Assembly: GCF_036365525.1 (NCBI RefSeq)
Contig: NC_090387.1
Span: 89,383,691-89,447,690 of the forward strand
Origin: Heterodontus francisci
Taxonomy: Eukaryota
Reading direction: 5' to 3'
Length of the DNA: 64,000 nucleotides
The notes under the pieces were generated by a model. It saw only the letters and a program-made list of their open reading frames with translations. It searched no databases and was not told the DNA's origin. Of this stretch, positions 1 to 62,444 are shown piece by piece; the first letter of the stretch is position 1; each line of letters begins with the position of its first letter. A program made the translations under genes and the position numbers.

Positions 1-116
1 CCCCCACCCCCCGCGACATCCTCCAGTGTAAAGTTCGAAATGGGCTGAAACAAAACGTCGGGTTGTTAACCTTGATTAATGTCCCATTAACGATATTTTC
101 CTTCATTATTTTTTAG

Positions 117-428
117 CTCCACCAACTCCACTGAAAATTAACTCTCAGCAACCTGAGAAGGATTCATCTGTTTCTCTGACTGTTGTGTGCGTGACATCTC
201 CCTTTTATCCAGAGAGTATCAGCTTCACTTGGTATAAGGATGGCAACAAAACTACAACAGGGATAAGTAACGATATTGAACCCAACACCGACGGACTATA
301 TGAAGCCTCCAGCCGCTTGCAAGAGACGCAGTTTGTCCCGCCCGGAACTGTTTATATCTGCCTGGTCTCTCACAGTAGCCTCCAAAATGCAGCCATTGCC
401 ACTTACATTGTCACCTATCACAGCACAG
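117..428 (+). CDS. Copy A C1-set Ig exon
   Basis: ttttag|ctcc acceptor, acag|gtgaga donor; VVCVTSPFYPESISFTWYKDG..NTDGLYEASSRL..YICLVSHSSL. Confidence 0.95.
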
Positions 429-3400
429 GTGAGATTTCAGATAAAATTCGGAGAATCGTCGGCATCGAAAGAGGTCATTTGGCCCAGCGTGTCTGTGCGG
501 CCTCTTTGAAAGAGCTGTCCAGTTTAGTCCCCATAACTGCAAATTAGACAACTTTAAGCAACATGTCCAATTGTCTTTTGAAAATTCCTGTCTAAATTGC
601 TTCCAACAATCTTTCAGCTCGTGTATTCTGCATCTCAACAACCCCCATGAGAAAAGAATTCCCCTCAAAACCTCTCTAGTCTTTTTGCCAATAGATTTAA
701 ACCTATGACTGCCGGCTATCGACCCATTTCTTCAGAAGAATGTTTCTTTCTACTTGATTCACTAAAAGCCTTCATAATTTTGAATATTTCTCTTAGATAT
801 CCCTTTAATTTTCTGTGTTTTAATGAGAGCAATCCTAGCTTCGCCAATATCTCCAAGTAGCTGAAGGCCCTCCTCCCTGTTCGAGCCGGTAAATCTCGCC
901 TGAATTCTCTGCAAGACCTTGACATTCTTTGAAAATGCGGTGCCCAGCATTGTGCACAATAATCTAACTGAGAACTAACCAAAGATGTGTAAACTTTAGC
1001 ATGGCTTCCATGTTTTTGTATCCAATGCCTCGATTCACAAAACTAATTACCGCACAAGCTTCCTTAACCGACTTATTAACTTGCTGTGCTACCTTCAAAG
1101 ATGTGTAAATATGCACCCCTATCTTCTCCTGATTTAGTATACCCCTCAAAATCGCACCATTTCCATTTTACTACCTCTCATTATTTCACCCAAAGTGCAC
1201 ACTTCAGACTTATCCACATTGAATTGCACCTACCATTCGCGCAACAGGGAAAGCAACGCACAGTGGCGCAGTGGTTAGCACCGCAACCTCACAGCTCCAG
1301 CGACCCGAGTTCAATTCCGGGTACTGCCTGTGTGGAGTTTGCAAGTTCTCCCTGTGTCTGCGTGGGTTTTCTCCAGTTTCCTCCCACATGCCAAAGACTT
1401 GCAGGTTGATAGGTACAGGTGGGGATGTGGTAGGAATATGGGATTAGTGTAGGATTAGTATAAATGGGTGGTTGATGGTCAGCACAGACTCGGTGGGCCG
1501 AAGGGCCTGTTTCAGTGCTGTATCTCTAAACTAAACTAAAATTCGTCTGCCCATTTCCTCACTGTATTTTCTTCCAATGTCTGCTACTTCCTTTCTCACC
1601 ATTTACTACGTTACCAATTTTGCCTCATTAACAACCTTCAAATTGTACTCCCTATATCACGTCCCAGCCATTTATGCATATCAGGTAAAGTATTAGTCCT
1701 GATACTGATCCCTGAGGGAATCCCACTGCATATTTCTCTCCTGTCAAAAATCCACTCTCTGTCACCTATCACTTAGCAAATTGCATACCCAAGGTACCAT
1801 GGTGCATTAAATCCAATATGTCATAGCTCAACATTCGTTTGTTTAATAATATCGCACCTTAATACTAAATGATTAAAACAAAAAGATTTGCATTTATGTA
1901 ACGATTTTCACGACCACTGGACATCTCAAAGTGCTTTACAGCCAATGAAGTACTTCTGAAGTATTTTCACTGTTGTAATGTAGAAAACGCGATAGCCAAT
2001 TTGCATACAGCAAGTTCCTACAAACAGCAATGTGATAATGACCAGATAATTGGTTTTGTGATTTTGATTGAGGGATACATATTGGCGAGCACACCAAGGA
2101 TAACTGCCCTGCTCTTCTTTGAAATAGTACAATGGCCATTTTTATATCCCCTTGAGAAGGCAGATAGGGGCTTGATTTAATATCACATCTGTAAATCAGC
2201 ACCTCCAACAGTGCAGCAGTGCAGCATTCCCTCAGTACTACGTTGGAGTGTCAGCCTTAACTTTTGTGCTCAAGCCCTAAAGTAGAACTTGGACCCAGAA
2301 CCTTATGACTCAGAGGCAAGAGTGCTACCAATTAATCCATGGCTGATGTCAACTGCAATAACTGACTGAAAAGATTTCGAATTCTCTATCTTTCAGGGTA
2401 TTGTCATATTGAATTGAACAGCATACAGGTTCGGATTTATATATTTAATGTACATCTTTCAGGTGGAGAAAACAACTGTTACTTGCTGGTTTCTGCATCT
2501 GCAGGGGGCGTGGTGGTATTATTGGTGATAGGTCTCATTATTGCCAAGCGATGTGTGGCAAAGAAAAACAATGGTAAGAAATAATTCAGTTTTCTTTTAT
2601 TAAAGTTAGCACAAGTTTCAAAGCGACATTAGTTAGCCTGTCCCACAGGAACACAGGTGATTGCTGAACACAAACGTTCTCCTGGGGTTTAAAATATATG
2701 GGACCCTACCCAGGCACTCCAGGGTACCAGTATAGGGGTACATTCACATTTCTGAAATGGAGTCGAATTTTCGAAGGTCTTCAGTCACTGACAAGAGATT
2801 CGGGGTGGATTTCTATGTGCTCGCTAGTGACCGGAACGGAGAAGGTAGGCCATAAAATATCAAAGGAAGGCCGCGGATGGACTGCCCTGCACCTTCTCGT
2901 CGCCATGCGTTTGTTCCGGGATGCGAAAGGCTTTCTCACCCAAAGGCTAATTGAGGCCATTAAGTGGCGAAGTAATAGCCAATTAAGGGCCTCTTCCCAT
3001 CGCCGCTGGCATTCGACGAGAGGTGGGGTGTCTCGACGTGGGAAGATCCAAGTTCAACAAGGTGATGCCCAGCAGTCTTGGGGCGGGGATGGGGACTCCT
3101 CTGTGGGCGATCTGTGACCCACAGAGGGACCCCGATGGCAAAGGCCACCCCTCCATGAACAGCCCCTCTCATCCTCAATGACCTACGTCCTCCCTCCCCC
3201 TCGGCAGGGCCTGCCGGACTAGACCTGGTGACCCCGCCACTTTTACGAGGGTATGGGGCCCCAGTGAACGTCCACTTGTAGTACCAGCAATGGTCACCGC
3301 TCCCAGTGGCCACTGATCCGCTAGCCGTTTGATTGGCTGATAGTTCTTTGGGGTGGGATCCCAAATGAAAATGACCGAAACCAAAGCCCAGGCAGTTACT

Positions 3401-6400
3401 TGCCCGACTGTCATCAAATAGAGACGGGTGAGGGGGGTGGGGGGGTGTTGGGGGAGAGGGTCCTCAAAGGTCTAAACCGAGGTTCCCCTCTTAGGCCCAG
3501 CGTCAGGACCGTTGCCGTTTCCACGAAATTCAGCGCTCAGACTTTTGGGTGCTTTATTGAAAAATCTCCTCTGTGATTTAACGCCATTCTGGTAATGAAC
3601 ATAAAAATTTATGCTGTGTCCATGCGATTTTTCAATCAGACTCTCACTATTTCACTGGTATTTGAACAATCTTGCTCCTATTGTCAAATGTGATCAGAAA
3701 CCAAGCAATTCTGAACAACAAATGTGATATCTAGGTCATATAATTTACATTGAATCTACCAGATGTATCTTTCTAAGCCGAGTAAATGTTAAAGATAAAG
3801 TCTTAAACTTCATTCATTACCAGGAGGGAAGAACGATGGTGAAAGATCCAACTCTCCCGAACAGCAGGTAGGTTTTCATAATTCGTACTAATGTATTTCA
3901 AATGTAAATATAAATGTAACAATGTTGTACTGTATTTAATGCAATAATTTGCGCGTTTCATTTCCTACTGTACAAATTCAGACAAAATAGCACAGGTTGA
4001 ATTCAGTGCTTATGCAACAGACAATCTCCTATAAGCACATAACCAGTAAAGGACTGGTAAAAAGGACGAGTGGGGTCGATTAGGGTCCTAAAAGGGAATT
4101 TACGCATGGAAGCAGAGGGCATCCCTGAGGTACGAAATGTGTACTTTGCATCGGTCTTTAGCGAGGAAGAAGATGCTGCCAAAGTCAGAGTGAAAGGGAG
4201 GTAGTTGAGACACTGGATGGGCTAAAATGGACAAAGAGGAAGTATAGATCAATTGGCTGTAATTAAAGTTGATAAGTCATCAGGTCGGGATGAGATGCAT
4301 CCAATGATATGTAAGGATAGAAATTGCAGATGCATTGGCTATAATCTTCTAATCCTCCTTCGATATAGTTGTGGTGCCAGGGGACTGGAGAATAGGAAAT
4401 GTTACACTATCGTTCAAAAATGTATGTCAGGACAAGTCCAGCAACTGCAGGCCAGTGCAACTTCGGCAGCAGGAATGCTTTTAGAAACGATGATTCAGGG
4501 CAAAATTAATAGTGACTTAGACAAATGTGGAGTAAGTAAGGAAAGTCAGCACGGATTTGTTAAGGGCAAAGCGTGTATAGCTAACTTGGCTGAGGTTTTG
4601 TTTTTGATAAGGTAACAGGCAAGGTTGATGAGGGTAATGCCACTGACGTGCTGTACATGGACTTCCAAAAGGCCTTTGATATAGTGCCACATAACAGGCT
4701 TGTCAAGAAAGTTAGATCCATGGAATAAATGGGACAGTAGCAACATGGATACGAAAATAGCTGAGTGACAGAAAGCAGAGAATAGCGGTGAACAGTTTTT
4801 TTTGGACTGGAGAAAGACTGGATTCCCAGGGGTTGGTGTTGGGACCTCTGCTTTTCTTGACACATATTACAGAGTTAGACCTGGTTGTACAAGACACAAT
4901 TTCAAAATTTTCGGTGTCACAAAACATGGAAGCATTGTGAACTGTGAGGAGGATAGTGATAAACTTCAAGAGGACACAGGCAAACTGATGGAATGGGTGG
5001 ACAAGTGGCAGATAAAATTAAATGCAGAAATTGTGAAGTGATTTGTTTTGGTAGGAAGAACGAGGGAAGACAATATAAATTAAATGTTACAATTCTAAAA
5101 TGGGTGCAGGCTCAGAGGAACCTGGGGGTGCAAGCACAAATCATGGAAGTTGCAGGGCAGGTTGAGAAATCGGTTAATAAATCATATGAGATCCTGGGCT
5201 TCATAAATAGGGGCATAGAGTACAAACACAAGGAAGTTATGATAAACCTGTATAAAACACTGGTGCGGCATCAACTGAAGTAAAGTGTCAAGTTCTGGGC
5301 ACGACACTTTCGGAAGGATATGAAGGCATTGGAGATGGTGCAGAAAAATCACGAGAATGGTTCCGGGGTGAGGAACTTCAGTTACGTAGATCAGATAAAG
5401 AAGCTGGGTCTGTTCTCTGGGAGAAGAGAAGACGAAGAGGAAATTTGATATAGGAGTTTAAACTCATGAGGCGTCTGGACAGAATAGATAAGGAGAAACT
5501 GTTCCCGTTGGCTGAAGATCAAGAATCAGAGGACACCGATTTAAGGCGATTGGCAGAAAAAAACGCAAAAGTGACAGCGAGTGGTTCGGAGTTGGAATGT
5601 ACTGCCCGGGGGTGTGGTGGTGGCTGATTCAGTTGAGGCCTTCAGAAGAAAGCTGCATAACCATCTGAAGAGAAACAAGAAGTGCAGGGTTACATGGAAA
5701 AGGCAGGGAAGCAGGGATAGGTGAGCTGCCCTTGCAGAGATCCGTCACGGACACGATGGGCCGAATGACCTACTCTGTGCTGTAGCCATTCTATGATTCC
5801 ACGATTCGATATGGAAACAATCTTTCTCAATAGATTCGAGGCACGTGAATTATAACTGTCATTTGCTGACTTATCATCCACTGTAATGAATAGTCGCAAA
5901 ACATTGCTTTAACCTCCTGGATACAATAAGATACAGGGGAGGTACCAGAGGATTCGATAGTGGCAAATGTGACATTCTTATTCAAGAAAGGTGGAAGGAC
6001 AGTCCTAGCAACTACAGGCCAGTTAATTTAACATCAGTGCTGGTTAAAGTTTTAGAAAAATATCAACGGACACTTAGAGAGGTTCGAATTACTTAAGGAT
6101 AGCCAGCATGGATTTGTAAAAGGGAGATCATGCTTGACTATTCCAGTTGTATTTTTTGATGAAAAAACAGAGAAGGTTGATGAAGGGAATGGGATGGAAG
6201 TTATTTATATGGATTTTAAGAAAGTACGTGATAAAGTGCCACATAAAAGGCTGGTAAACAAAATTGAGGCTCGTGGAATAGGAGGTTCAGTGTACAATTG
6301 GATAATAGAAATTAGCTTAAAGGCAAAAACGGTGAGTTGTATTAAATAGTTGCTTTTCGTACTGGGAGATGCTAGACAGTGATGTTCCCCAAGGTCCTGT

Positions 6401-9400
6401 GATGGGACCACTGTTTATTGCTATATAGAAATGACTTGGATCTTGGAATACAGAGTAGAATCTCAAAATTGCTGATGGCACCAAACGTGGAGAAGCAGCA
6501 AACAGTGAGCATGACATGAATCACCTACAACCGGATGTAGATGGACTAGAGAAGTAGGCAGAAAGGTGTCAGATGGAACTTAATACTGCCAAGCAAGAGG
6601 TGATGCATTTTGGCAGAAGGAATAGGGAAAGGTAATATATGCTTAACAGCACAGTTCTAAAGAGTGTGCAGGAACTGAGGAACTGGGGGTGCATGTGCAT
6701 GGATCTATGAAGGTGGCAGGACATGTTGAGAGAGTGGTTGGTAAAGCATATTGAATTTTGGGAGTTCATAAATAGAGGCATTGAGTGCAAAAGCAGAGAT
6801 ATTATGTGGAACCTTTCTCAAGCTCTGGTTAGGCCCAACTGCAGTGCTGTGTCCAGTTCTGGTTACCACACTTCAGTAAGGACGTGAAAGTTCTTGAGAT
6901 GGTGCAGAGGAGATCTACCGGAATGGTTCCAGGGATGGGAGATTTTAATTACAAGGATAGGTTTGGAAAATCTGGATTTGAACCCCTTAGAACAAAGGAG
7001 ATTGAGGAGAGATTTAATAAAAGTGTACAGGATTATCACAAGCCTTATATAAGTTCTAGATGAGCACTTAAAACGCCACAGCATACAAGGCTACGGGGAA
7101 AATGGGAGTAGAATGGTTAGGTGCTTGATGGCTGGCACGGACACCATGGCCGAAGGGCCGGTTTCTGTGCTGTATAACTCTGTGACTATATGACTCTCTC
7201 AGTTAGACAAGGAAAATATTGTTCCCATTACAAATGGTACAAGGACTAGGAGAAACAAATTGAAAATATTGGGCAAGAGATGCAGGGAGAATATGAGGAA
7301 ACAACTTTTTTATGCAGCGGGTGCTGAGGACCGGGAACTCGCTGCCCACAAGAGAGGTGGAAGTGGAGACAATCAATGACTTCAAGAGGAAGTTGGATGG
7401 CCACTAGAAGGAAATGGACTTGTAGGGTACTGAGATCGAGCCCCCTGCAGTGGGACTGATGCATAGCTCCGTTGAGCGCCGGCATGGACTCTATGGACCG
7501 AATGGCCTCCTTCTGTGCCGTAAATGACTCGATGACTCGATGGCTATCCAATGTCCATTTGCCAAATCTGACTAAATCCAGTACATAAGAGTTCAAATCC
7601 TGCCATAGTAATTTGATATTTTCAATTCAGTTTTCAAAAATCTACAAGCAAAATGTGGTAACAGCCAAAGTGACCATGAATTTGTCGTGTTCCCCTGAAA
7701 CCCCAACTGGTTCAATAATATCTGTCAGAGAAGGGCATCTGTCATCCTTAACCGCTCTGTCCGTTACTCCAGTCCACATCAACGTGGTTGACTCTTAACC
7801 TTCATCTGAAGTCTCCTGACATGCCCACCATCACCTTTTAAGGGCAGGCAGGGATAAACAATAAGTGCCGGCCTTGCCAGCGATGCCCACAGCTCTAGAA
7901 TTAATACAAAATCCTGCAGAATGTCACGAGCTGAAGATACAAGTTTTGCTATTTATTGTTCATGCGTGTGCACAGACCACGGAAGCGGAACTTCGGATGC
8001 ATTTGCTGTAATGTGAAAAAAAAAGAGGAGACAGGTGACAAGAAATCAGCATTCTTTTCAGTGGCCTCATTGGCATATCAGATTATCATTGGGTGGAATT
8101 TGTTTCTTCGCTGCACAGGCTGCGAGGACGAGCACGCACTGAGAACCTTCTCGGAAAATTGTGCGTTATTGTCCTCCATTTCCCGTAGATTGAAATCAAT
8201 GGACAGAAATGTGTTGGCATTTACTCGAGGTTTTCCCACATATACCGTCTGCTGCATGAAATTATGGATGCCGAGAAGCGAACAAAAGCTCCAACACATC
8301 AAGAGAGGCATTCCAACCATAGCTGAATCTTTCAGCAAATCTTTTCCCTTAGATATGTCTGTTATTTATTTTCCATTTGTATTACGAGTTCTAATTCTTC
8401 TCCACATTTAAGTCGTCAAAGTCTACCTGACACTGAAAGAAAGAGGTGGATATAGATATAGATGGAAAATATATAGATATATAATTGCATACATATTGTA
8501 TAGATATAATTTTTTTTGATATTCTGGATGAATTAAAGACTGAACGTAGTATTCTAAGTGTAGCGCAGAGGTGACTGCCAACTTCAAATAATCTCCTGTG
8601 TTCCACGTTCTAATAATTGTTTGCAGAATTCTATTCTCTATTTACTTGTTTGAACAATGAAAGTGACCTGACTACAGTTGTCCCAGACTCCCCTCTATCA
8701 CCCTGTGCTAATTCAATTCCATCCATTCTCTAACTGCAACACAGATTTTCCAATTCCGCTCAATTTCATAACAGGATCTAAATGATTTTTCCTATTTTTG
8801 TTGCAACAAATGTGTAGCTTCCAGTATATAAACCTTGACAGCTGCAGGTTATTTCAAGCAGTGAGTCAGGTCAATGGACTGCAGGGATGAACTTTGAGCT
8901 TTCGTTTTTCTTAATATTCTTCACCTGGATATTTCATGGGATTTCCATAACCTCAGTGGAATATTCGCGGAAATCTCAGAGAACCGACTTAAAGAGCGTT
9001 TTCAGCCATTTCCCCCATTTCTCCGGGGTTTCTCGTAATCACGAAGCCAAGTAAGATCAGGAGACGGGTTGTAGCTCTGTCGAGTTTTGAAGACAGATTT
9101 TGGCAAAATACCGCTTGACGTGAAACAACAAATGCATGTGGGGAGCACACAAACATACATCTGGTTGGTAGAATCACACTTCCCAAGGAATTTTCTTTAC
9201 ATTCATTTCAATGGAGGGAAAAGACATCGGGTCCTGTTGCCAGCAGCGCCTTCCCCGGAGTTTCCATTCTGCGCTCAGCGCTAACGTTGCTTAAAGCCGA
9301 GTCGGTAAAGACCAGACCCCCTTTTCACTGTCCCACAAACTGCTTATTTTTGTAAATAAGACTCATTCCGCCTGCTGGGCACTGATGGCGCAGGCAGACA

Positions 9401-10510
9401 CAGGGCAACAGTGACTGATATCGCATCCATTCAGTTAATGGATTGACTATGGAGTTGCAGTTTCCGTCCCTGCTCGCGTCGTTCTGCACACGGAGAGCCC
9501 AACCGAATTTATCTGACAACATAACAAGATATATATGTTTGTCCTTCAGACCATGCAGGGCACAGCCGATGTGATGGCGCCTTATGCTGAACTCGAGATA
9601 ATGAATCCCTTGAAAACTCCAAGACCAAAGCATCAAGAAAGGACAGCGCATGTCCAGGTAGGGGTGAGTAGCCGAACAAAGAGACACGGAATGCCTGTAA
9701 TTAAGAAGTAAAACGGTGAAGCGTAAGAAATGCTTTAATAGTGCTTTTATAGTGCTGTTGTACTTAACATTAATTCTGCCAAGCTTTGGCAATGGTCGTT
9801 ATGTCAGCTATAGCTCAGCTGGTCGCAACTTGACATCTAATTCACAAGGTTGTGGGTTCATCGTCGCATCCTGGAGAGTTGAGCACAAAATATTCGTTGA
9901 CATTCCTGTGCAGTACTGAGGGAAATCTACTTTGTTGGGGGTGCCGTCTGTCGAATGAGACCTTGGACTGAGGCCTCGGTTTCTTTGTTAGGCGAATCCC
10001 TTGACACTATTTCGAAGAAAAGCAGGGAGTTATCCCTAGTGTCCGAGTCAATAATTATTCTTCAATCAACATCACCAGAACAGATTATCTGCTGACTAAC
10101 ATACTGTCCGCGGGAGCTTGCTGTGAGAAAATCGGCAGCCATGTTTCCTACAGTACAACAGTTACTGCACTTCAAAAACTATTTCTTTGGCTGTTAAAAT
10201 GCTTTGGGGGTGTCTTGAGGTCGCGAAAGGCGTTATATAAATGCAAGTTTTTTCATTGTTTTTCAATTTGAATTCCAGAGCCTAACTTTACATTGCCGTT
10301 AACATATCGAACTAATTATATTCCCAAATATTGATTTCACAGACCAAGCAAAGGACACCTGATAATAAGCTGACTTACGCTGCTGTATCTATGGCAGGGT
10401 CAAAGAAAACAGCAAAGCCTAATTATAAGGATAAGAGCACGGAGTATGCTCAGCTACGGATTGAAAAACAAAGAGCAGACGTGATTTACACCGAACCGAA
10501 AGCCACGTGA
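117..10510 (+). CDS. Copy A of the same receptor, 5'-partial (leader and V exons presumably upstream of the window); exons 117-428, 2463-2573, 3824-3867, 9550-9663, 10343-10510
   Basis: Exon sizes (312, 111, 44, 114, 168), splice sites and phases identical to copy B; open frame to TGA at 10508-10510. Confidence 0.88.
445..1820 (-). mobile_element. Old CR1 LINE fragment (mirror copy ~47570-48665, +)
   Basis: Degenerate QLDYCAQCWAPHF / LGLLSLKHRKLKG RT C-terminal motifs. Confidence 0.75.
1240..1540 (+). mobile_element. tRNA-derived V-SINE (HE1-like), left arm only
   Basis: A/B boxes (tggcgcagtgg, gttcaattcc), V-domain gtggagtttgca.gttctccc, CR1-like tail and (ctaaa)n; TSD attcg 1235-1239/1541-1545; empty site in right arm ~47860. 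Confidence 0.85.
1885..2350 (-). mobile_element. Deu-domain SINE (mirror copy ~47095-47525)
   Basis: Deu core (actgagggaatgctgcact...gaagagcaggg...tatccctcaa) with L2-like tail. Confidence 0.75.
2463..2573 (+). CDS. Copy A transmembrane exon GGENNCYLLVSASAGGVVVLLVIGLIIAKRCVAKKNN
   Basis: ctttcag| acceptor, g|gtaaga donor, 111 bp, hydrophobic helix. Confidence 0.9.
2801..3537. mobile_element. GC-rich non-autonomous DNA transposon/MITE (mirror copy ~45875-46638)
   Basis: Abrupt GC-rich block in an AT-rich intron; imperfect terminal inverted repeats (ggggtggatttc / ggcctgaatttc); no coding capacity. Confidence 0.5.
3824..3867 (+). CDS. Copy A short cytoplasmic exon GGKNDGERSNSPEQQ
   Basis: cattaccag| and cag|gtaggt, 44 bp, phase 1-0. 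Confidence 0.8.
4000..5800 (+). mobile_element. CR1 LINE ORF2 remnant (mirror ~43270-45080)
   Basis: DKSSGRDEMHP, SQHGFVKGK, YMDFQKAFD, LGFINRGIEYK motifs; frameshifted. Confidence 0.85.
5910..7540 (+). mobile_element. CR1 LINE remnant(s) (mirror ~41990-43170 lacks ~0.75 kb)
   Basis: YMDFKKVRDKVPHKRL motif; CR1 3' ends with (tgactc)-like tails at ~7190 and ~7535. Confidence 0.8.
9550..9663 (+). CDS. Copy A cytoplasmic repeat-1 exon (APYAEL)
   Basis: tgtccttcag|acc, ggg|gtgagt; phase 0-0; appears identical to the copy B exon. Confidence 0.72.
9800..10250 (+). mobile_element. Deu-domain SINE (mirror ~37580-38185)
   Basis: tRNA-like head, Deu core, tail aaaggcgttatataaatgcaag. Confidence 0.75.
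10343..10510 (+). CDS. Copy A terminal exon with LTYAAV, TEYAQL and VIYTEP tyrosine motifs
   Basis: ttcacag|acc; 55 codons then TGA. Confidence 0.88.
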   Translation, partial: TKQRTPDNKLTYAAVSMAGSKKTAKPNYKDKSTEYAQLRIEKQRADVIYTEPKAT

Positions 10511-11169: not shown

Positions 11170-11515
11170 TATATTACAATTTCTGCGAATTCAGCTCCTC
11201 CGAAACCACTTCATGGTCACTGAAGTGCTTTTCAAGGGTAATCACCATTATCAGGGAGGACAATTGGGACAGGCAGCAACAACACAGCATGTTCCCACAT
11301 ACAATAATTAAAATGGATGATTAGATAACTGTTTCAGTGTTGGTGGTTCAGGGATAACTATGGCCAGGACACTAGGAGAAATTTGCTTTTCTTCTGCAAA
11401 TAGTACCATGGGTTCTTTTACCATGAGTGGCCAGACGGGAATTTGATTTAATGCCTCTTCCCAAAGAGGGTACAGATGTTGACAGTGCAGCATCCCACAG
11501 TGCTGCATCAACACG
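11170..11515 (-). mobile_element. Degenerate Deu-domain SINE (mirror ~36245-36660)
   Basis: ccatggtactatttgcagaaga...gtcctggcca...tatccctgaacc core. Confidence 0.6.
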
Positions 11516-28255: not shown

Positions 28256-28257
28256 CC

Positions 28258-37488: not shown

Positions 37489-40400
37489 CTGTGAAATCAA
37501 TATTTGGGAATATAATTAGTTCGATATGTTAACGGCAATGTAAAGTTAGGCGCTGTAATTGAAATAGAAAAACAATGAAAAAGCTTGCATTTATATAACG
37601 CCTTTCGCGACCTCAATACATCCCAAAGCATTTTAACAGCCAAAGAAATAGTTTTTGAAGTGCAGTAACTGTTGTACTGTAGGAAACGTGCCTGCCGATT
37701 TTCTCACAGCAAGCTCCCGCGGACAGTATGTTAGTCAGCAGATAATCTGTTTTCGTGATGTTGATTGAAGGATAAAGATTGACTCGGACACTAGGGATAA
37801 CTCCCTAATAATAATATCCGAAGAAGGGTCACTGACCCGAAACGTTAACTCTGCTTCTCTTTTCACAGATGCTGCCAGACCTGCTGAGTGGTTCCAGCAT
37901 TTCTTGTTTTTATTTCAGATTTCCAGCATCCGCAGTATTTTGCTTTTATTTTAGGGATAACTCCCTGCTTTTCTTCGTAATAATGTCACGGGATTCACCT
38001 TAGAAAGAAACCGAGGCCACAGTCCAAGGTCTCATTCGAAAGACGGCACCCCCAACAGAGCAGATTTCCCTCAGGACTGCACTGGAATGTATATTTTGTG
38101 CTCAACTCTCTGGAGTGCGACGATGAACCCACAACCTTGTGAGTTCGATGACAGGTTGCTACCAACTGAGCTACAGCTGACATAACGACCATTGCCAAAG
38201 CTTGGCAGAATTAATGTTAAGTACAACAGCACTATAAAAGCACTATTAAGGCATTTCTTACACTTCACCGTTTTACTTGTTAATTACAGGCATTCCGTGT
38301 CTCTTTGTTCGGCTACTCACCCCTACCTGGACATGCGCTGTCCTTTCTTGATGCTTTGGTCTTGGAGTTTTCAAGGGATTCATTATCTCGAGTTCAGCAT
38401 AAGGCGCCATCACATCGGCTGTGCCCTGCATGGTCTGAAGGACAAACATATATATCTTGTTATGTTGTCAGATAAATTCGGTTGGGCTCTCCGTGTGCAG
38501 AACGACGCGAGCAGGGACGGAAACTGCAACTCCATAGTCAATCCATTAACTGAATGGATGCGATATCAGTCACTGTTGCCCTGTGTCTGCCTGCGCCATC
38601 AGTGCCCAGCAGGCGGAATGAGTCTTATTTACAAAAATAAGCAGTTTGTGGGACAGTGAAAAGGGGGTCTGGTCTTTACCGACTCGGCTTTAAGCAACGT
38701 TAGCGCTGAGCGCAGAATGGAAACTCCGGGGAAGGCGCTGCTGGCAACAGGACCCGATGTCTTTTCCCTCCATTGAAATGAATGTAAAGAAAATTCCTTG
38801 GGAAGTGTGATTCTACCAACCAGATGTATGTTTGTGTGCTCCCCACATGCATTTGTTGTTTCACGTCAAGCGGTATTTTGCGAAAATCTGTCTTCAAAAC
38901 TCGACAGAGCTGCAACCCGTCTCCTGATCTTACTTAACTTCATGATTACGAGAAACCCCGGAGAAATGGGGGAAATGGCTGAAAACGCTCTTTCAGTCGG
39001 TTCTCTGCAAGTTTCGCGAATATTCCACTGAGGTTATGGAAATCCCGTTAAATTTCCAGGTGAAGTATATTAAGAAAAACGAAAGATCAAAGTTCATCCC
39101 TGCAGTCCATTGACCTGACTCACTACTTGAAAAAACCTGCAGCTGTCAAGGTTTATATACTGGAAGCTACACATTTGTTGCAGCAAAAATAGGAAAAACC
39201 ATTTAGATCCTGTTATGAAATTGAGCGGAATTGGAAAATCTGCGTTGCAATTATAGAATGGATGGAATTGAATTAGCACAGGGTGACAGAGGAGAGTCTG
39301 GGACAACTGTAGTCAGGTCACTTTCATTGTTCAAACAAGTAAATAGAGAATAGAATTCTGCAAACAATTATTAGAACGTGGAACACAAGAGATTACTTGA
39401 AGTTGGCAGTCACCTCTGCGCTACACTTAGAATACTACGTTCAGTCTTTAATTCATCCATAAAATATATATCTACATCTATACAATATGTATGCAATTAT
39501 CTTTCTATATATTTTCCATCTATATCTATATCCACCTCTTTCTTTCACTGTAAGGTAGACTTTGACGACTTAAATGTGGAGAAGAATTAGAACCCGGGAT
39601 ACAAATAGAAAACAAATGTCAAACATATCTAAGGGAAAAGATTTGCTGAAAGATTCAGCTATGGTTGGAATGCCTCTCTTGATGTGCTGGAGTTTTTGTT
39701 CGCTTCTCGGCATCCATAATTTCATGCAGCAGACGGTATATGTAGGAAAACCTCGAGTTAATGCCAACACATTTCTGTCCATTGATTTCAATCTATGTGA
39801 AATGGAGGACAATAACGCACCCAAGTCTCCTGGCCCTGATGGAATGCATCCCAGGGTACTAAAAGAGATGGCGGGAGAAATAGCAGGTGAACTGGCGGTA
39901 ATTTTCCAAAATTCGCTGGACTCTGGGGTAGTCCCAGCAGATTGGAAAACAGCAGATGTGATGCCACTGTTTAAAAAGGGAGGTAGACAAAAGATGGGGA
40001 ATTATAGACCGGTTAGCTCAACCTCTGTAGTGGGGAAGATGCTTGAGTCTATTATCAAGGAAGAAATAGCAGGGCATCTCGATAGAAATTGTCCCGTTGG
40101 GCAGACGCAGCATGGGTTCATGAAGGGCAGGTCATGCTTGACAAATCTTTTGGTATTCTATGAAGACATTACGAGCAAGGTGGACAATGGGGCCCCAGTG
40201 GATGTGGTGTACCTAGATTTCCAAAAGGCCTTCGACAAGGTGCCGCACAAGAGGCTGCTGCATAAGATAAGGATGCATGGCGTTAGGGGTAAAGTATTAG
40301 CATGGATAGAGGATTGGTTGACTAACAGGAAGCAGAGAGTGGGGATAAATGAGTGCTATTCTGGGTGGCAATCAGTCACTAGTGATGTGCCTCAGGGATC

Positions 40401-43400
40401 GGTGTTGGGACCGCAATTATTTACAATTTAATATAGATGATTTGGAGTTGGGGACCACGTGTAGGGTGTCAAAGTTTGCAGATGACACTAAGATGAGTGG
40501 CAGAGCAAAGTGTGCAGATGACTGTGAAACTTTGCAGGGGAACATAGATACATTGAGTGAGTGGGCAAAGGTCTGGCACATGGAATACAATGTTAATAAA
40601 TGTGAAGTCATTCATTTCGGTAGGAGTAACAGTAAAAAGGATTATTACTTGAATGGTAAAAAGTTGCAGCATGCTGCTATGCAGAGGGACCTGGGTGTCC
40701 TTGTGCATGAATCGCAGAAGGTTGGTCTGCAGGTACAGCAAGTAATTAGGAAGGCAAATGGAATTTTGTCCTTCATTGCTAAAGGGATTGAGTTTAAAAG
40801 CAGAGAGGTTATGTTGCAGCTGTACAAGGTACTGGTGAGGCTGCACCTGGAGTACTGTGTGGAGTTTTGGTCTCCTTACTTGAGAAAGGATGTCCTGGCA
40901 CTGGAGGGGGTGCAGAGGAGGTTCACTAGGTTGATTCCGGAGTTGAGGGGGTTGGCTTATGAGGAGAGACTGAGTAGATTGGGATTATATTCATTGGAAT
41001 TCAGAAGAATGAGGGGGGATCTTACAGAAACATATAAAATTATGAAGGGAATAGATAAGATGCAAGTAGAGAGGATGTTTCCACTGGCAGGTGAAGCTAG
41101 GACAAGAATGCATAGACTCAAGATTAGAGGGAGCAGATTTAGGACTGAATTAAGAAGGAACTTCTTCACCCAGAGGGTTGTTAATCTATGGAATTCCTTG
41201 CCGAGTGAAGTAGTTGACGCTACTTCAGTAAACGTTTTTAAAGCTAAGGTAGATATCTTTTTGAACAATAAAGGAATTAAGGGATACGGTGAGAGAGCGG
41301 GTAAGTGGATCTGAGTCCACGAAAAGATCAGCCATGATCTTATTGAATGGCGGAGCGGGCTCGAGGGGCCGGACGGCCTACTCCTGCTCCTACTTCTTAT
41401 GTTCTTATGTTCCGATAAGGTTCTCAGTGCTTGCTCGGCCTCGCAGCCTGTGCAGCAAAGAAACAAATTCCACCCAAAGATAATCTGATATGCCAATGAG
41501 GCGACTGAAAAGAATGCCGATTTCTTGTCACCTGTCTCCTCGTGTTTTTTTTTCACATTACAGCAAATGCATCCGAAGTTCCGCTTCCGTGGTCTGTGCA
41601 CACGCGTGAACAATAAATAGTAAAACTTGCATCTTCAGCTCGTGACATTCTGCAGGAGTTTGTATTAATTCTGCAGCTGTGGGCATCGCTGGCAAGGCCG
41701 GTACTTATTGTTTATCCCTGGTTGCCCTTAAAAGGTGATGGTGGGCTTGTCAGGAGATTTCAGATGAAAGTTAAGAGCCAACCACGTTGATGTGGACTGG
41801 ATTCACGGACAGAGCGGTTGAGGATGACAGATGCCCTTCTATGACGAACATTATTAAACCAGTTGGGGTTTCAGGGGAACACGACAAATTCATGGTCACT
41901 TTGGCTATTACCATATTTTGCTTACAGATTTTTGAAAACTGAATTGAAAATGTCAAATTACCGGATTTGGCAAATGGACATTAGACAGCCATAGTCATTG
42001 AATCATTTACGGCACGAAAGGAGGCCATTCAGTCCATAGAGTCCATGCCGGCGCTCCACGGAGCTATGCATCACTCCTACTCCCCGGCTCTATCTCAGTA
42101 CCCTACAAGTCCATTTCCTTCAAGTGGCCATCCAACTTCCCCTTGAAGTCATTGATTGTCTCCACTTCCACCACACTTGTGGGCAGCGAGTTCCAAGTCC
42201 TTAGCACCCGCTGCAGAAAAATAAGTTGTTTCCTCATATCCCGGGGCGGCACAGTTGTTAGCACCACAGCCTTACAGTTCCTGCGACCTATGTTCAATTC
42301 TCGGTACTGCCTGTGCGGAGTTTACAAGTTGTCCCTGTGTCTGTGGGTTTCCACCGCGTGCTCTGGTTTCCTCCCACCTCCAAAAACTTGCAGGTTGATA
42401 GATAAATTGGCCATTGTAAATTGCCTCTAGTGTCGGTAGGTGGTAGGAGAATGGTGCGGATGTGGTAGAGGATATGGGGTTAATGTAGGATTAGCATAAA
42501 TGGGTGGTTGTTGGTCAGCACAGACTTGGTGGGCCGAAGGGCCTGTTTCATTGCTGTATCTCTAAATAAATAAAATTCCCTCTGTGTCGCCTAGTCCTTG
42601 TACCATTTGTAATGGGAACAATTTTGTCTAACTGAGAGAGTCATAGAGTCACTGAGTTATCCAGCACAGAAACATGCCCTTCGGCTCATGGTGTCCGTGC
42701 CGGCCATCAAGCACCTAACCATTCTAATCCCATTTTCCCCGTAGCTTTGTATGCTATGGCGTTTCAAGTGCTTATCTATAACTAATCTTAGGCCTGTCAT
42801 AATCTTGTACACTTTTATTAAATCTCTCCTCAACCAGCCTTTTATGGTGGACTTTATCAAGTACTTTCTTAAAATCCATACAAATAACTTCCATCACGTT
42901 CCCTTCATCAACCTTCTCTGTTATTTCATAAAAAAATACAATTAGATTAGTCAAGCATGATCTCCCATGCTAGTTATCCTTCAGTAACTCGAACCTCTCT
43001 AAGTGTCCGTTGATATTTATCCTGATTATTCTTTTTCAAACCTTACCCAGCACTGATGTTAAATTAACTGGCCTGTAGTTGCTGGGACTGTCCTTACACC
43101 CTTTCTTGTCACATTTGCCACTATCGAATCCTCTGGTGCCACCCCTGTATCTTGTTGTCTCCAGGAGGTTAAAGCAGTTTTTTTTTACTATTCATTACAG
43201 TGGATGATCAGTCAGCAAAAGACAGTTATAATTCACGTGCCTCGGATTTATTGAGAAAGATTGTTTCCACATAGAATCATGGAATCATAGAATGGCTACA
43301 GCACAGAGTAGGTCATTCGGCCCATCATGTCTGTGACGCATCACTGCAAGGGCAGCTCACCTAGCCCTGCTTCCCTGCCTTTTCCATGTAACCCTGCACT

Positions 43401-46400
43401 TCTTTGTTTCTCTTCAGATAATTATGCAGCTTTCTTCTGAAGGCCTCAACTGAATCTCCCACCACCACACCCCCGGGCAGTACATTCCAACTCCGAACCA
43501 CTCGCTGTCACTGCGGCTTTTTTTGTGCCAATCGCCTTAAATCGGTGTCCTCTGGTTCTCGATCCTCAGCCAACGGGAACAGTTTCGCCTTACCTACTCT
43601 GTCCAGACGCCTCATGATTTTATACTCCTCTATCAAATTTCCTCTTAGTCTTCTCTTCTGCCAGAGAACAGTCCCAGTTTCTCTATCTGATCTACGTAAC
43701 CGAAATTCCTCACCCCGGAACCATTCTCGTGATTTTTCTGCACCATCTCCAATGCCTTCATATCCTTCCGAATGTGTCATGCCCAGAACTTGACACAATA
43801 CTTCAGTTGATGCCGCACCAGTGTTTTAGACAGGTTTTTCATAACTTCCTTGTGTTTGTACTCTATGCCCCTATTTATGAAGCCCAGGATCTCATATGAT
43901 TTATTAACCTATTTCTCAACCTGCCCTGTAACTTCCATGATTTGTGTTTGCACCCCCAGGTTCCTCCGAGCCTTCACCCATTTTAGAATTGTAACATTTA
44001 ATTTATATTGTCTGCCCTCGTTCTTCCTACCAAAATAAATCACTTCACACTTTCTGCATTAAATTTTATCTGCCATTTGTCCTCCCATTCCATCAGTTTG
44101 CCTGTGTCCTCTTGATGTTTATCACTATCCTCCTCACAGTTCACAATGCTTCCATGTTTTGTGTCACCGAAAATTTTGAAATTGTGCCTTGTACAACCAG
44201 GTCTAACTCTGTAAAATGTGTCAAGAAAAGCAGAGGTCCCAACACCAACCCCTGGGAATCCAGTCTTTCTCCAGTCCAAAAGAAACTGTTCACCGCTATT
44301 CTCTGATGTCTGTCACTCAGCTAATTTCATATCCATGTTGCTACTGTCTCATTTATTCCATGGATCTAACTTTGTTGACAAGTCTGTTATGTGGCACTAT
44401 ATCAATGATCTTTTGGAAGTCCATGTACAACACGTCAGTGGCATTACCCTCATCAACCCTGTCTGTTACCTTATCAAAAACAAAACCTCAGCCAAGTTAG
44501 TTATACACGATTTTTCCTTAACAAATCCGTGCTGCCTTTCCTTACTTACACAACATTTGACCAAATCACTATTAATTTTGCCTTGAATCATTGTTTCTAA
44601 AAGCATTCCTGCTGCCGAAGTTAAACTAACTGGCCTGCAGTTGCTGGACTTATCCTGACATGCATTTTGAACAATAGTGTAACATTTCCTATTCTCCAGT
44701 CCCCTGGCACCACAACTATATCGAAGGAGGATTAGAAGATTATCGCCAATGCATCCGCAATTTCGACCCTTACATATCATTGGATGCATCTCATCCCGAC
44801 CTGATGACTTATCAACTTTAAGTACAGCCAATCGATCTATTACTTCCTCTTTGTCCATTTTAGCCCATCCAGTGTCTCAACTACCTCCCTTTCACTATGA
44901 CTTTGGCAGCATCTTCTTCCACCTTAAAGACCTATGCAAAGTACACATTTTGTACCTCAGGGATGACCTCTGCTTCCACGCGTAAATTCCCTTTTAGGAC
45001 CCTGATCGGCCCCGCTCGTCCTTTTTACCAGTCCTTTACTGGTTATGTGCTTACAGAAGTTTGTCTGTTGCATCAGCACTGAATTCAGCCTGTGCCATTT
45101 TGTCTGAATTTGTGCAGTAGGGAATTAAACGCGCAGATTATTACATTAAATAGAGTACAACATTGTTACATTTATATTTACATTTGAAATACATTAGTAC
45201 GAATTATGAACACCTACCTGCTGTTCAGGAGAGTTGGCTCTTTCACCATCGTTCTTCACTCCTGGTAATGAATGAAGCTTAAGACTTTATCTTTAATATT
45301 TACTCGGCTTAGAAAGACACTTCTGATAGATTCAATGTAAATTATATGACCTAGATATCACATTTGTTGTTCAGAATTGCTTGGTTTCAGATCACATTTG
45401 ACAATCGGACCAAGATTATTCAAATGCCAGTGAAGTAGTGAGTCTGGTTGAAAAATCGCATGGGCACAACACAAATGTTTATGTTCATTACCGCACTGGC
45501 GTTAAGTCACAGGCAATGAAAGGAGATTTTTCAATAGACTACCCATTAAGGGCGGCACAGTGGCGCAGTGGTTAGCACCGCAGCCTCACAGCTCCAACAA
45601 CCCGGGTTCAATTCTGGGTACTGCCTGTGCGGAGTTTGCATGTTCTCCCTGTGACCGGGTGCTCCGGTTTCCTCCCACAGCCAAAGACTTGCAGCCATTG
45701 TAAATTGACCCTAGTGTAGGTAGGTGGTAGTGAATATGGGATTACTGTAGGGTTAGTATAAATAGGTGGTTGTTCTAAGAAAGAAAAAGAAAGAAATATA
45801 AATGGGTGGTTGTTGGTCGGGACAGATTCCGTGGGGCCTGTTTCAGTGCTGTATCTCTAAATAAATAAGTCTGAGGCCTGAATTTCGTGGAAACGGCGGG
45901 GGTCCTGATGCTGGTCAGGAGGGGAACCTTACCTGAGACCTTTGGGGACCTCTTTCCCTCCCCGTCACCAACCCCCACCCCCCCCCCCCCCCCCACCCCC
46001 TCCCGATTCCAGTCAATGACAGTCGGGCAAGTAACTGCCTGGGCTGTGGTTCCGGTCCTTTTCAGAACGAGGATCCCAGCCCAAAGAACTATCAGCCAAT
46101 CAAACGGCCAGCAGCTCAGTGGGAGCGGTGGCCATTGCTGTACGACAAGTGGACGTTCACTGGAGTCCCACACCCCCGTAAAAGTGGCGGAGTCACCAGG
46201 AATAGTCCGGCAGGCCCTGCCGAGGGGGAGGGAGGATGTCGGTTATTGAGGACGAGAGGGGTTGTTCATGGGGTTGTTCATGGTGGCCTTTGCCACCGGG
46301 TGCCCTCTGTGGGCCACAGATCGCCCACAAATGAGACCCCGCCCCCCCCCTCTCCCGTCCCAAGACTGCAGGGAGTCACTTTGTTTAACTGGAATCTTCC

Positions 46401-49400
46401 CACGTCGAGACACCCGACCTGTAGTCGAATACCAGCGGCAATGGGAAGAGGCCCTTAAGTGACTATTAATTGGCCACTTAATGGCCTCAATTAGCCTTTG
46501 GGTAGGATGGCCTTTCGCGTCCCAGAAAAAACGCACGGCAACGGGAAGGTGCAGGGCAGTCCACCCGCTGCCTTCCTTCGATATTTTATGGCCACCGCCT
46601 CCGTTCCAGTCACCAGGGGGCACCTAGAAATCCACCCCGAATCTCTTGTCAGTGACTGAAGACCTTCGAAAACTCTACTCCATTTCAGAAATTTGAATGT
46701 ACCCCTACACTGGAACCCTGGAGTGCCCGTGTAGGGTCCCATATATTTTAAACACCATGAAAACGTTTGTGTTCAGCAATCACCTGTGCTCCTGTGGGGA
46801 CAGGCTAACTAATGTCGCTTTGAAACTTGTGCTAACGTTCGTAAAATAAAACTGAATTATTTCATACCATTGTTTTTCTTTGCCACACATCGCTTGGCAA
46901 TAATGAGACCGATCACCAATAATACCACCACGCCCCCTGCAGATGCAGAAATCAGCAAGTAATGGTTGTTTTCTCCACCTAAAAGATGTAAATTAAATAT
47001 ATAAATCCGAACCTGTATGCTGTTCAATTCAATATGACAATACCCTGAAAGAAAGAGAATTCGAAATATTTTCAGTCAGTTATCGCAGTTGATATCAACC
47101 ATGGCTTAGTTCACTCTTGCCTCTGAGTCATAAGGTTCTGGGTTCAAGTTCTACTTTAGGGCTTGAGCACACAAATTAAGGCTGACACTCCAATGTAGTA
47201 CTGAGGGAATGCTGCACTATTGGAGGTGTTGATTTACAGACGTGATATTGCCTTCTCAAGTGGATATAAAAACGCCCATGGTACTATTTCAAAGAAGAGC
47301 AGGGGAGTTATCCTTGGTGTGCCAACCAATATTTATCCCTCAATCAAAATCACAAAACAACTTATCTGGTCATTATCACATTGCTGTTTGTAGGAACTTG
47401 CTGTGTGCAAATTGGCTATCGCATATTCTACATTACAACAGTGAAAATACTTCAGAAGTACTTCATTGGCTGTAAAGCACTTTGAGATATCCTGTGGTGG
47501 TGAAAATCGTTATATAAATGCATTTATTTTAATCATTTAGTATTAAGGTGCGATATCATTAAACAAAAGAATGTTGAGCTATGACATATTGGATTTAATG
47601 CACCGAGGTACCTTGGGTATGCAATTTGCTAAGTGATAGGTGGCAGAGAGTGGATTTTTTCACAGGAGAGAAATATGCAGTGGGATTCCCTCAGGGATCA
47701 GTATCAGGACTAATAATTTACCTGATATGCATAAATGATCTGGACTTGATATCGGGAGTACAATTTGAAAATTGTTAATTAGGCAAAATTGGTAACGTAG
47801 TAAATGGTGAGAAGGGTAGGAGCAGACATTAGGGGAAAATACAGTGAGGAAATGGGCAGACGAATGGTAAGTGCAATTCAATGTGGATAAGTCTGAAGTG
47901 TGCACTTTGGGTGAAACAACATGGAGAGGTAGTATAATGGAAATGGTGCGATTTTGAGAGGCATACTAAATCAGGAGAAGCTAGGGGTGCATATCTACAC
48001 ATGTTTGAAGGTGGCAGAGCAAGTTAATAAGTAGGGTTAAGGAAAGCTTGTGCGATAATTAGTTTTGTGAATAGAGGTATTGGATACAAAAACATGGAAG
48101 CCATGCGAAAGTTTACACATCTCTGGTTAGTTCTCAGTTAGATTATTGTGCACAATGCTGGGCACCGCATTTTAAAAGAATGTCAAGGTCTTGGACAGAA
48201 TACAGGCGCGATTTACCGGCTTTAACAGGGAGGAGAGCCTTCAGCTACGTTTAGAGATTGGCGAAGTTCGGATTGCTCTCATTAGAACACAGAAAATTAA
48301 GGGGATATCTAAGAGCAGTATTCAAAATTATGAAGGGTTTTAATGAATCAAGTAGGAAGAAACATTCCTCTGAAGAAATGGGTCGATAGCCGGCAGTCAT
48401 AGGTTTAAAACTACTGGCAAAAAGACTAGAGGGGTTTTGAGGGAAATTCGTTTCTCACGGGGGTTGTTGAGATGTCGAATACACGAGCTGAAAGGTTGTT
48501 GGAAGCAATTTATACATGGATTTTCAAAAGGCAATTGGACATGTTACTTGAAGGGGTTTAATCTGCAGAGTTATGGGGATTAAACTGGACAGCTCTTTCA
48601 AAGAGGCCGCACAGACACGCCAGGCCAAATGACCTCTTTCGATATTGTACGATTCTACGATTTTATCTGAAATCTCACCTGTGCTGTGATAGGTGACAGT
48701 GTAAGTGGCCATGGCTGATATTTGGAGGGTACTGTGAGAGACCAGGCAGGAATAAACAGTTCCGGACAGGACAAACTGCGTCTCTTGCAACTGGCTGGAA
48801 GCTTCATATAGTCCGTCGGTGTTAGGTTCAACAACGTTACTTATCCCTGTTGTAGTTTTGTTGCCATCCTTATACCAAGTGAAGCTGATACTCTCTGGAT
48901 AAAAGGGAGATGTCACGCACACAACAGTCAGAGAAACAGATGAATCCTTCTCAGGTTGCTGAGATTTAATTTTCAGTGGAGTTGGCGGAGCTAAAAAAAA
49001 ATGAAGGAAAATAACGTAAATGGGACATCAATCAGGGTTAACAACCGGACATTTTGTTTCAGCCCATTTCAAAGTTAACACTGGAGGAGGTCTCGGGTGG
49101 GTCGGTGGGTGGAGGGGGGTCGGGGCTGGGGGTGGAGGGTGTGGTGAGGGGATGAGTCTTTGTGACACTGCATGGATGTTCACTTTGCGCTGTCAGTAGT
49201 TGCATCGTAAACGGATTTTCACAAGTGTCACCATTATTTCGGCGGTAATTGCAATGTTACCGCCCGGCAAAAAAAGGATGATAGCGAGTGGGTCGCCCGT
49301 TTTACAGCTCTCCCATTTTTCTATTCTAATGGGAAAGAAAATTGAGCGGGATGTATTTTGCGTTGCTCGCCCTGTTTCGCGGTACAGCTGCGAACTCTGT

Positions 49401-62443: not shown

Positions 62444-62444
62444 T

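What the first reader, a model, noticed from the sequence alone, without database searches (positions are those of the whole stretch)
1..49110. Giant inverted duplication (arms >=21 kb, ~3-kb spacer) placing two receptor genes tail-to-tail
Seen: the window up to ~25286 is mirrored by ~28258-49110. Both arms keep open exons and splice sites. Arm-specific TE insertions with empty sites in the partner show a real, aged duplication rather than a collapsed assembly. Inference: palindromic architecture permits arm-to-arm conversion and recurrent inversion, a route to paired-receptor evolution.
Basis: partly seen in the sequence, partly recalled or inferred. Interest (0 to 1): 0.7.

Follow-up and report, generated by a model that had tools for sequence, protein, structure and literature searches.

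The report
Old inverted triplication of shark immune receptors
In a shark genome, two intact and likely inhibitory immune-receptor genes face tail to tail at the hinge of an old three-copy inverted repeat hundreds of kilobases long, which was likely made when DNA folded back at two jumping-gene copies and whose arms have likely swapped sequence since, a known kind of rearrangement.

Summary
The inverted duplication is real. The arms are much longer than reported: copy 1 (window -458 kb to 25.3 kb) mirrors copy 2 (28.3 to 315 kb; 140.6 kb aligned, 91.2%), and a third copy (about 358-629 kb) mirrors copy 2, so the order is +/-/+. The hinge is a hybrid LINE: its 3' part is the sister of arm B's truncated LINE, and its 5' part is a second LINE missing from an older paralog. 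That is the published fold-back signature. Exchange between copies is likely: a 602-bp identical tract covers one cytoplasmic exon, and the closest pair of copies switches along the unit. Both genes encode intact 374-aa leader-VJ-C1-TM receptors (31 differences) with uncharged TM segments and the same tyrosine motifs, so they are not an activating/inhibitory pair. At about 91% identity this is an aged segmental duplication in a cluster with 45 V-exon matches, not a maintained palindrome. Verdict: new member of a known kind; interest moderate.

The parts
1..25286 (+). In-window end of copy 1 (arm A); the arm continues upstream to about -458,264 with large indels, including a 159-kb block not shared with copy 2
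28259..64000 (-). In-window start of copy 2 (arm B); mirrors arm A without a large break to 60232 and, in blocks, to 314,840; also mirrors copy 3 (about 358-629 kb)
25287..28258 (.). Single-copy spacer, 2,972 bp: the 5' half of LINE X2 (25287-26859) plus ancestral flank S (26860-28258)
24224..26859 (-). Hybrid LINE at the fold-back junction: 5' part from copy X2, 3' part the sister of X1 (its 3' end continues at 18535-18087); switch near 25220-25286
28259..29929 (+). 5'-truncated LINE X1 of arm B; the same truncation point and flank occur in older paralog F
18536..24223 (+). Arm-A-only nested insertion: a younger X-family LINE (18651-24224) interrupted by another RT/endonuclease LINE (20855-23637)
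117..428 (+). Gene A, C1-set exon (leader at -2484..-2430 and VJ exon at -1942..-1622 lie upstream of the window)
2463..2573 (+). Gene A, transmembrane exon, no charged residue in the hydrophobic core
3824..3867 (+). Gene A, cytoplasmic exon 1
9550..9663 (+). Gene A, cytoplasmic exon 2 (APYAEL)
10343..10510 (+). Gene A, cytoplasmic exon 3 with ITIM-like LTYAAV, ITSM-like TEYAQL and stop
9103..9704 (+). 602-bp tract identical to 38881-38280: likely recent gene conversion over cytoplasmic exon 2
38280..38881 (-). Partner of the identical tract in arm B
50503..50557 (-). Gene B, leader exon
50021..50341 (-). Gene B, single-exon VJ-type domain (ends GNGTGSNLVVT)
48679..48990 (-). Gene B, C1-set exon
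46868..46978 (-). Gene B, transmembrane exon, no charged residue in the hydrophobic core
45218..45261 (-). Gene B, cytoplasmic exon 1
38321..38434 (-). Gene B, cytoplasmic exon 2, identical to A's
37321..37488 (-). Gene B, cytoplasmic exon 3 with LTYAAV, TEYAQL and stop
37807..37951 (.). Arm-B-only young repeat with a 15-bp target-site duplication; empty site in arm A at 10024-10038
39821..41406 (+). Arm-B-only LINE fragment; empty site in arm A at 8159-8161

Best explanation
The window is the tail-to-tail hinge of an old three-copy (+/-/+) segmental repeat of a roughly 290-kb unit, each copy carrying one VJ-C1 receptor gene with likely inhibitory motifs; the hinge was likely made by a fold-back template switch between two inverted LINE copies, and the copies have likely exchanged sequence in patches since. 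Shown: the three copies and their orientation, the single-copy spacer, the hybrid LINE at the hinge, two intact genes, spliced transcripts matching gene B, the 602-bp identical tract and the switching of the closest pair. Inferred: the ancestral unit read gene - truncated LINE X1 (reverse) - 1.4-kb flank S - full-length LINE X2 (forward); a strand ending in X2 paired with X1 at the homologous position and synthesis ran back through X1 and the gene. Inferred: later TE insertions, large deletions and non-allelic conversion or crossover between inverted partners gave today's patchwork. Inferred from motifs: both proteins recruit SHP-type phosphatases, and the duplication raises the dose and ectodomain variety of an inhibitory receptor. 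Whether all three copies arose in one event or in two is not resolved.
For: Copy 1/2: 73 collinear blocks, 140,562 columns, 91.2%; copy 2/3: 78 blocks, 144,057, 92.7%; copy 1/3: 73 blocks, 121,529, 90.7%. The hinge LINE pair are sisters among 25 copies; 42 shared derived sites, the first at 28327. Older paralog F (about 80%) has the same X1 truncation and flank S, aligns to B up to exactly 26860, and has no X2 there, where an X 5' end begins in the window. S (27400-28250) has only one other full-length match in the genome, F at 81% (40 of 4,922 candidates scored). This matches the hybrid-repeat junctions with a single-copy spacer in 3 of 21 human fold-back junctions (PMC3907307, passages). The distal flank of F reappears behind copy 3 (635169-636355, 76%). 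Three-way comparison, 78,511 columns: the closest pair is copy 2/3 in most windows at 85-240 kb and copy 1/2 at 262-289 kb; heterogeneity 981 against a permutation maximum of 203. 602-bp identical run: chance about 3e-10 at 5% divergence; a same-sample contig spans exactly 9103-9809, between A/B differences at 9102 and 9810. Both ORFs intact, B identical to P0001; contigs of a run guessed to be RNA join B's V to C1 with 0 differences.
Against: The second (head-to-head) junction is not resolved: 315-355 kb holds single-copy DNA with no match left of copy 1, which a one-step triplication explains only by a later deletion. S is oriented with copy 2, whereas a one-step event starting from copy 1 would orient it with copy 1, so a later flip of the spacer or a second event is needed. 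F's distal flank is not found left of copy 1 either, which a two-event model would expect. F's X1 shares only 2 of the 42 A/B derived sites, so its orthology rests on the shared truncation point and flank. Only about half of each copy aligns. Rate variation or misaligned repeats can inflate the heterogeneity statistic. No listed contig piece bridges 25286/7 or 26859/60 (32 of more than 121,000 pieces shown). All reads laid come from one sample, probably the assembled one. Inhibitory signalling is inferred from motifs only.
Confidence: 0.62

Rival explanations
1. The unit first duplicated in tandem in direct orientation; later, recombination between the reverse LINE X1 at the end of copy 1 and the forward LINE X2 at the end of copy 2 inverted copy 2, which gives the same hybrid LINE and the +/-/+ order.
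For: It yields exactly the observed hinge and S orientation. The other close paralogs (E, F, C, D) are all in direct orientation. The three copies are nearly equidistant (private sites 2,554 / 1,890 / 2,305).
Against: It predicts a second S and a reciprocal hybrid LINE at the other end of the inverted segment. No second S at arm-level identity was found in the genome, and neither S nor F's distal flank occurs in 315-355 kb. Both would have to be deleted.
Confidence: 0.27
2. The mirror is a selected, maintained palindrome in which arm-to-arm conversion keeps a receptor pair matched, as in sex-chromosome palindromes or SIGLEC11/16.
For: 602-bp identical tract over a signalling exon and 97% identity over 37-39 kb; coding identity 96.1% against about 92.5% for the arms.
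Against: Arms are about 91% identical, not over 99%. B's ectodomain exons are closer to distant paralog D than to A. A 704-bp identical run also occurs between copies 2 and 3, far from any receptor exon. The two genes do not have opposite signalling parts.
Confidence: 0.08
3. The mirror is an assembly artefact: two haplotypes joined end to end.
For: Only one sample could be laid; the hinge lies in repeats and its LINE junctions were not seen bridged in the listed pieces.
Against: 6-9% divergence over 140 kb, against nucleotide diversity of 0.002 reported for another shark (PMC10587355, passages); 15 arm-specific gaps; three copies plus three more paralogs; no Ns; a contig with 0 differences runs 27331-28293 across the spacer/arm-B edge.
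Confidence: 0.03

Closest known systems
Fold-back inverted duplications with hybrid LINE/Alu junctions (Hermetz et al. 2014, PMC3907307; passages read)
   Same: Kilobase single-copy spacer; inverted repeat copies at the spacer edge and the duplication start; switch at homologous positions giving a hybrid LINE.
   Different: Theirs are de novo human rearrangements next to terminal deletions or translocations; this one is interstitial, carried in a reference assembly and about 9% diverged.
DUP-TRP/INV-DUP and ODIRA inverted triplications (PMC11293582, abstract and outline; PMC10766183 and PMC4689423, search listing only)
   Same: Three copies with the middle one inverted; a junction inside an inverted repeat pair.
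   Different: The second junction is unresolved and holds about 40 kb with no partner; the repeats here are LINE copies roughly 85% alike, not low-copy repeats with kilobases of full identity; one event or two is open.
SIGLEC11/SIGLEC16 (PMC5701461; start of abstract and passages)
   Same: Neighbouring inverted Ig-superfamily receptor genes homogenised in part by gene conversion.
   Different: SIGLEC11/16 are head to head, 9 kb apart, have opposite signalling and convert the ectodomain; A and B are tail to tail, both inhibitory-type, and the clearest tract covers a cytoplasmic exon.
Mammalian sex-chromosome palindromes (10.1101/800185, PMC8981503; search listing only)
   Same: Large inverted arms, short spacer, arm-to-arm conversion.
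   Different: Those keep over 99% identity; these arms are about 91% with many private insertions and deletions.
SIRP-alpha and shark UrIg2, as non-rearranging VJ-C1 proteins (PMC12227049, abstract and first of 8 parts)
   Same: Single-exon VJ-type domain followed by C1-set; best PDB hits are UrIg2 (E 1.5e-18) and SIRP-alpha (5.8e-16); tyrosine motifs in the tail as in SIRP-alpha (recalled).
   Different: One C1 only; membrane-bound, unlike secreted UrIg; CD276 and Ig light chains score nearly as well, so the database name 'SIRP-like' is not an orthology result.

Membership tests
Fold-back inverted duplication (Hermetz 2014) | Single-copy spacer between inverted copies | tested here: met
   2,972 bp; S matches only itself and older paralog F (81%) at full length
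Fold-back inverted duplication (Hermetz 2014) | Inverted homology at the junction, giving a hybrid repeat | tested here: met
   X2 5' part joined to a sister of X1; F has the empty site
Fold-back inverted duplication (Hermetz 2014) | No reciprocal junction, which separates it from an inversion by recombination | tested here: inconclusive
   None found, but large later deletions are common in this region
Fold-back inverted duplication (Hermetz 2014) | Adjacent terminal deletion, translocation or ring | tested here: not met
   Interstitial, about 10 Mb from the end of a 99.65-Mb contig, with cluster genes on both sides
DUP-TRP/INV-DUP inverted triplication | Three copies, the middle one inverted | tested here: met
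DUP-TRP/INV-DUP inverted triplication | A second junction and flanking duplicated segments consistent with one event | tested here: inconclusive
   289-315 kb is shared by copies 1 and 2 only; 315-355 kb holds single-copy DNA
Maintained palindrome (sex-chromosome type) | Arm identity over 99% | tested here: not met
   90.5-92.7%
Maintained palindrome (sex-chromosome type) | Arm-to-arm conversion | tested here: met
   602-bp identical tract and switching of the closest pair; one genome only
Paired activating/inhibitory receptors | Similar ectodomains | tested here: met
   91.7% protein identity
Paired activating/inhibitory receptors | One partner with a charged TM residue and no ITIM | tested here: not met
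   Both TMs uncharged, both tails carry APYAEL, LTYAAV, TEYAQL
SIRP family | V domain with a J-like motif followed by C1-set | tested here: met
   Pfam V-set and C1-set; GNGTGSNLVVT
SIRP family | V-C1-C1 ectodomain (feature recalled) | tested here: not met
   One C1 exon per gene
SIRP family | Linkage to NSFL1C and PDYN (human gene order recalled) | tested here: inconclusive
   SEP-domain genes lie on C5 and C16 and one opioid-precursor match on C5, none on C17; low sensitivity, orthology not established
SIRP family | Binds CD47 | not tested
   No binding prediction was run
UrIg / UrIg2 | VJ followed by three C1 domains, secreted (PMC12227049, introduction) | tested here: not met
   One C1, a TM exon and a 118-aa tail

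The most novel reading that the evidence does not exclude
A fossil inverted triplication drives modular shuffling of an undescribed shark family of non-rearranging VJ-C1 inhibitory receptors: conversion between arms only about 92% alike keeps the signalling tail the same, while ligand-binding exons are traded with paralogs up to 860 kb away, and the family descends from the same VJ-C1 stock as antigen receptors.
Probability: 0.2. Interest if true: 0.65.

Novelty: new member of a known kind. Interest (0 to 1): 0.42.

Why it matters
It shows a rearrangement type known from human patients and yeast experiments preserved, with its junction still readable, as a step in the growth of an immune gene cluster in a shark. 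It also gives a testable case of conversion between arms that are only about 92% alike. The genes belong to a large non-rearranging VJ-C1 receptor family, with relatives in other sharks, rays and probably a chimaera, that I did not find described (searches; open-access library only). None of the mechanisms is new.

Tried and rejected
(1) First suspicion that the inner block 24224-25286 was a chance match of two LINE copies and the spacer 11 kb: rejected by the tree and shared variants. (2) Dating with the epaulette-shark pedigree rate (7e-10 per generation, PMC10587355): gives 43-52 million generations, range 21-262, implausibly old once multiplied by a shark generation time; not used. (3) Positive selection on the V domain: 12 non-synonymous against 1 synonymous difference between A and B, but P = 0.18; not claimed. 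(4) Expression of gene A: contigs with A-type letters at 10340-10487 exist in a run guessed to be RNA, but paralogs E or F could give them; inconclusive. No holder is on record as RNA. (5) Contig depth as copy number for the identical tract: 17.6-19.1 against 5-10 on many single-paralog contigs, but a B-only contig also has depth 18-19; not used. (6) Activating members: TM candidates were recovered for 12 of 15 C1-bearing genes, none with a charged core residue; some candidates are doubtful, and none was found for 3 genes. (7) Rfam: 0 matches in the window; tandem repeats: one 26-bp array. (8) Earlier findings of this scan: none, by place or by words. (9) No structure or complex prediction was run. 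(10) Supplementary files of the papers were not read; a table there could list this gene family. Labels such as SINE, CR1-like or RTE-like were avoided or are recalled; Pfam shows only RT and endonuclease domains.

Full report
Setting. The window is C17:89,383,691-89,447,690 of a 6.0-Gb genome. Its V-domain protein is 100% identical to a database protein named from Heterodontus francisci, so this is a shark. About 46% of the window is covered by repeats with 8 or more local hits. Coordinates below are window coordinates, negative upstream. I read 1.576 Mb around the window, with no Ns.

Observation. Self-BLAST shows 11 collinear inverted blocks, 18,246 columns at 90.5%, between 3-25286 and 49105-28259; a shuffled arm gives nothing. 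The innermost block lies in a LINE family with many copies, so it could have been a chance match. It is not: among 25 copies these two share 27 variants that no other copy has (next pair 6) and form a clade with support 1.0. The spacer is 25287-28258. Arm A carries a private 5.7-kb nested LINE insertion at 18536-24223. Of 15 arm-specific gaps that I picked from the chain, 13 are high-copy repeats, and one has a 15-bp target-site duplication.

True extent. The mirror runs on to 60232 against -12385. Beyond a 159-kb block private to the A side it resumes and ends at 314,840 against -458,264: 73 blocks, 140,562 columns, 91.2%. Copy 2 is mirrored again on its other side by a third copy, 357,845-629,290 (78 blocks, 144,057 columns, 92.7%), which carries gene E; copies 1 and 3 are direct (121,529 columns, 90.7%). 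The order is +/-/+, with A and B tail to tail and B and E head to head. Further paralogs F, C and D (D has a frameshift in C1) lie at 674, 860 and 906 kb in direct orientation, and the contig has 45 V-exon matches in all.

The hinge. Paralog F (about 80% identical, so older) has the same 5'-truncated LINE X1 followed by the same flank S, and aligns to the B side through the spacer up to exactly 26860. At 26859 the window has the 5' end of another X-family LINE, X2, matching the 5' ends of five other copies; F runs on in the old flank with no X2. X2 is inverted relative to X1. Read along its strand, the element is X2 from 26859 to about 25287 and then the sister of X1; the first of 42 shared derived sites is at 28327 in B coordinates. 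So the LINE on arm A is a hybrid joined at homologous positions of two inverted copies 1.4 kb apart. Hermetz et al. report this for 3 of 21 human fold-back junctions, one of them a hybrid LINE (PMC3907307, passages). The same hybrid would come from inversion of one member of a tandem array by recombination between X1 and X2, but that leaves a second S with a reciprocal hybrid. A genome search found S at full length only here and in F (40 of 4,922 candidates scored), and the far end of copy 2 holds neither S nor F's distal flank. I put fold-back at 0.62 and inversion at 0.27.

What does not fit cleanly. F's distal flank reappears behind copy 3, as a one-step inverted triplication predicts (the class is described in PMC11293582; abstract and outline seen). 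But 315-355 kb is partly single-copy, and S points with copy 2, not copy 1. One event followed by a deletion and a spacer flip, or two events, both remain open.

Exchange between copies. In 78,511 three-way columns the private sites are 2,554, 1,890 and 2,305 for copies 1, 2 and 3. The closest pair is 2/3 in most windows from 85 to 240 kb and 1/2 from 262 to 289 kb (97-98%); the heterogeneity statistic is 981 against a maximum of 203 in 1,000 permutations. Rate variation and misaligned repeats can inflate this. In the window, 9103-9704 and 38881-38280 are identical over 602 bp, covering cytoplasmic exon 2 and about 450 bp of intron, the longest exact run between copies 1 and 2 (next 224); chance is about 3e-10 at 5% divergence. 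A same-sample contig spans exactly 9103-9809, bounded by the A/B differences at 9102 and 9810, which fits a tract shared in the reads but is not independent proof. Exchange is not confined to this pair: B's leader-V-C1 region is 96.4-97.3% identical to D against 90.7-94.6% to A, and copies 2 and 3 share a 704-bp run away from any receptor exon.

The genes. A and B each have seven exons (leader, VJ, C1, TM, three cytoplasmic), canonical splice sites and 374-aa frames differing at 31 positions; B equals P0001. Both TM segments are uncharged, and both tails carry APYAEL, LTYAAV and TEYAQL, which read as ITIM/ITSM-type motifs (definitions recalled). Contigs of runs guessed to be RNA join B's V and C1 exons with 0 differences and cover its last exon and 3' region with 0 differences; A's expression is unresolved. 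The V domains differ by 12 non-synonymous and 1 synonymous change, not significant (P = 0.18). Relatives occur in other sharks and rays under mixed automatic names. The best solved-structure matches are UrIg2 (E 1.5e-18), SIRP-alpha (5.8e-16) and CD276 (1.6e-15), too close to assign a family. SEP-domain and opioid-precursor genes, neighbours of human SIRP from recall, are not on C17. The genes work like SIRP-alpha-type inhibitory receptors by motif; membership of SIRP is not shown.

Comparison and novelty. SIGLEC11/16 are the known case of inverted, converting receptor neighbours, but they are head to head and signal in opposite directions (PMC5701461, start of abstract and passages). A and B do not form such a pair. 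Sex-chromosome palindromes keep over 99% identity (search listing); these arms do not. Searches for the receptor family or this locus found no description; PMC10751288 (passages) and PMC12227049 (abstract, first of 8 parts and a term search) discuss non-rearranging VJ-C1 genes, and the parts seen do not cover this cluster. The library holds open-access papers only, and supplements were not read. Verdict: a real, larger-than-reported structure, a new member of a known kind, interest 0.42.

Noticed in passing
C17, window coordinates about 35 kb to 629 kb (L021-L040, L081-L112, L041-L046): A second, larger inverted duplication (144 kb aligned, 92.7%) places genes B and E head to head around a spacer of about 69 kb; its junction is unresolved.
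   Followed up: partly
C17:70.9-71.0, 76.1-77.0, 88.4-90.8 and 92.5 Mb: 45 matches to the single-exon VJ domain on one contig: a large non-rearranging VJ-C1 receptor cluster in mixed orientation, best PDB hit shark UrIg2; no paper found describing it.
   Followed up: partly
window 48001-51000 against window coordinate 906-909 kb (gene D): B's leader-V-C1 region is 96-97% identical to frameshifted paralog D, 860 kb away, with a 267-bp exact run in the V exon; possible long-range conversion with a pseudogene.
   Followed up: partly
gene E, window coordinate 626,400-626,404 (C17:90.01 Mb): E has lost cytoplasmic exon 2 (APYAEL) by a genomic deletion yet stays in frame (P0002, 335 aa), the same exon that A and B have homogenised.
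   Followed up: no
window coordinates -183 kb to -24 kb and -435 kb to -395 kb: Blocks private to copy 1 contain further V-C1 genes (G, J, K) that copies 2 and 3 lack.
   Followed up: no
window 10488 and 10759: A same-sample DNA contig that is otherwise A-type has the letters of the B transcript at these two sites, and no laid contig shows the assembly's letter at 10759; an allele of A with B letters, or an assembly error.
   Followed up: no
window 55224-55634 (+): Decayed DDE_Tnp_4 transposase-like frame (Pfam E 5.7e-7), inside a stretch duplicated in both arms.
   Followed up: no
window 37807-37951: A 145-bp repeat with near-identical copies nearby (99-100%) and a 15-bp target-site duplication: a very young short element.
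   Followed up: no
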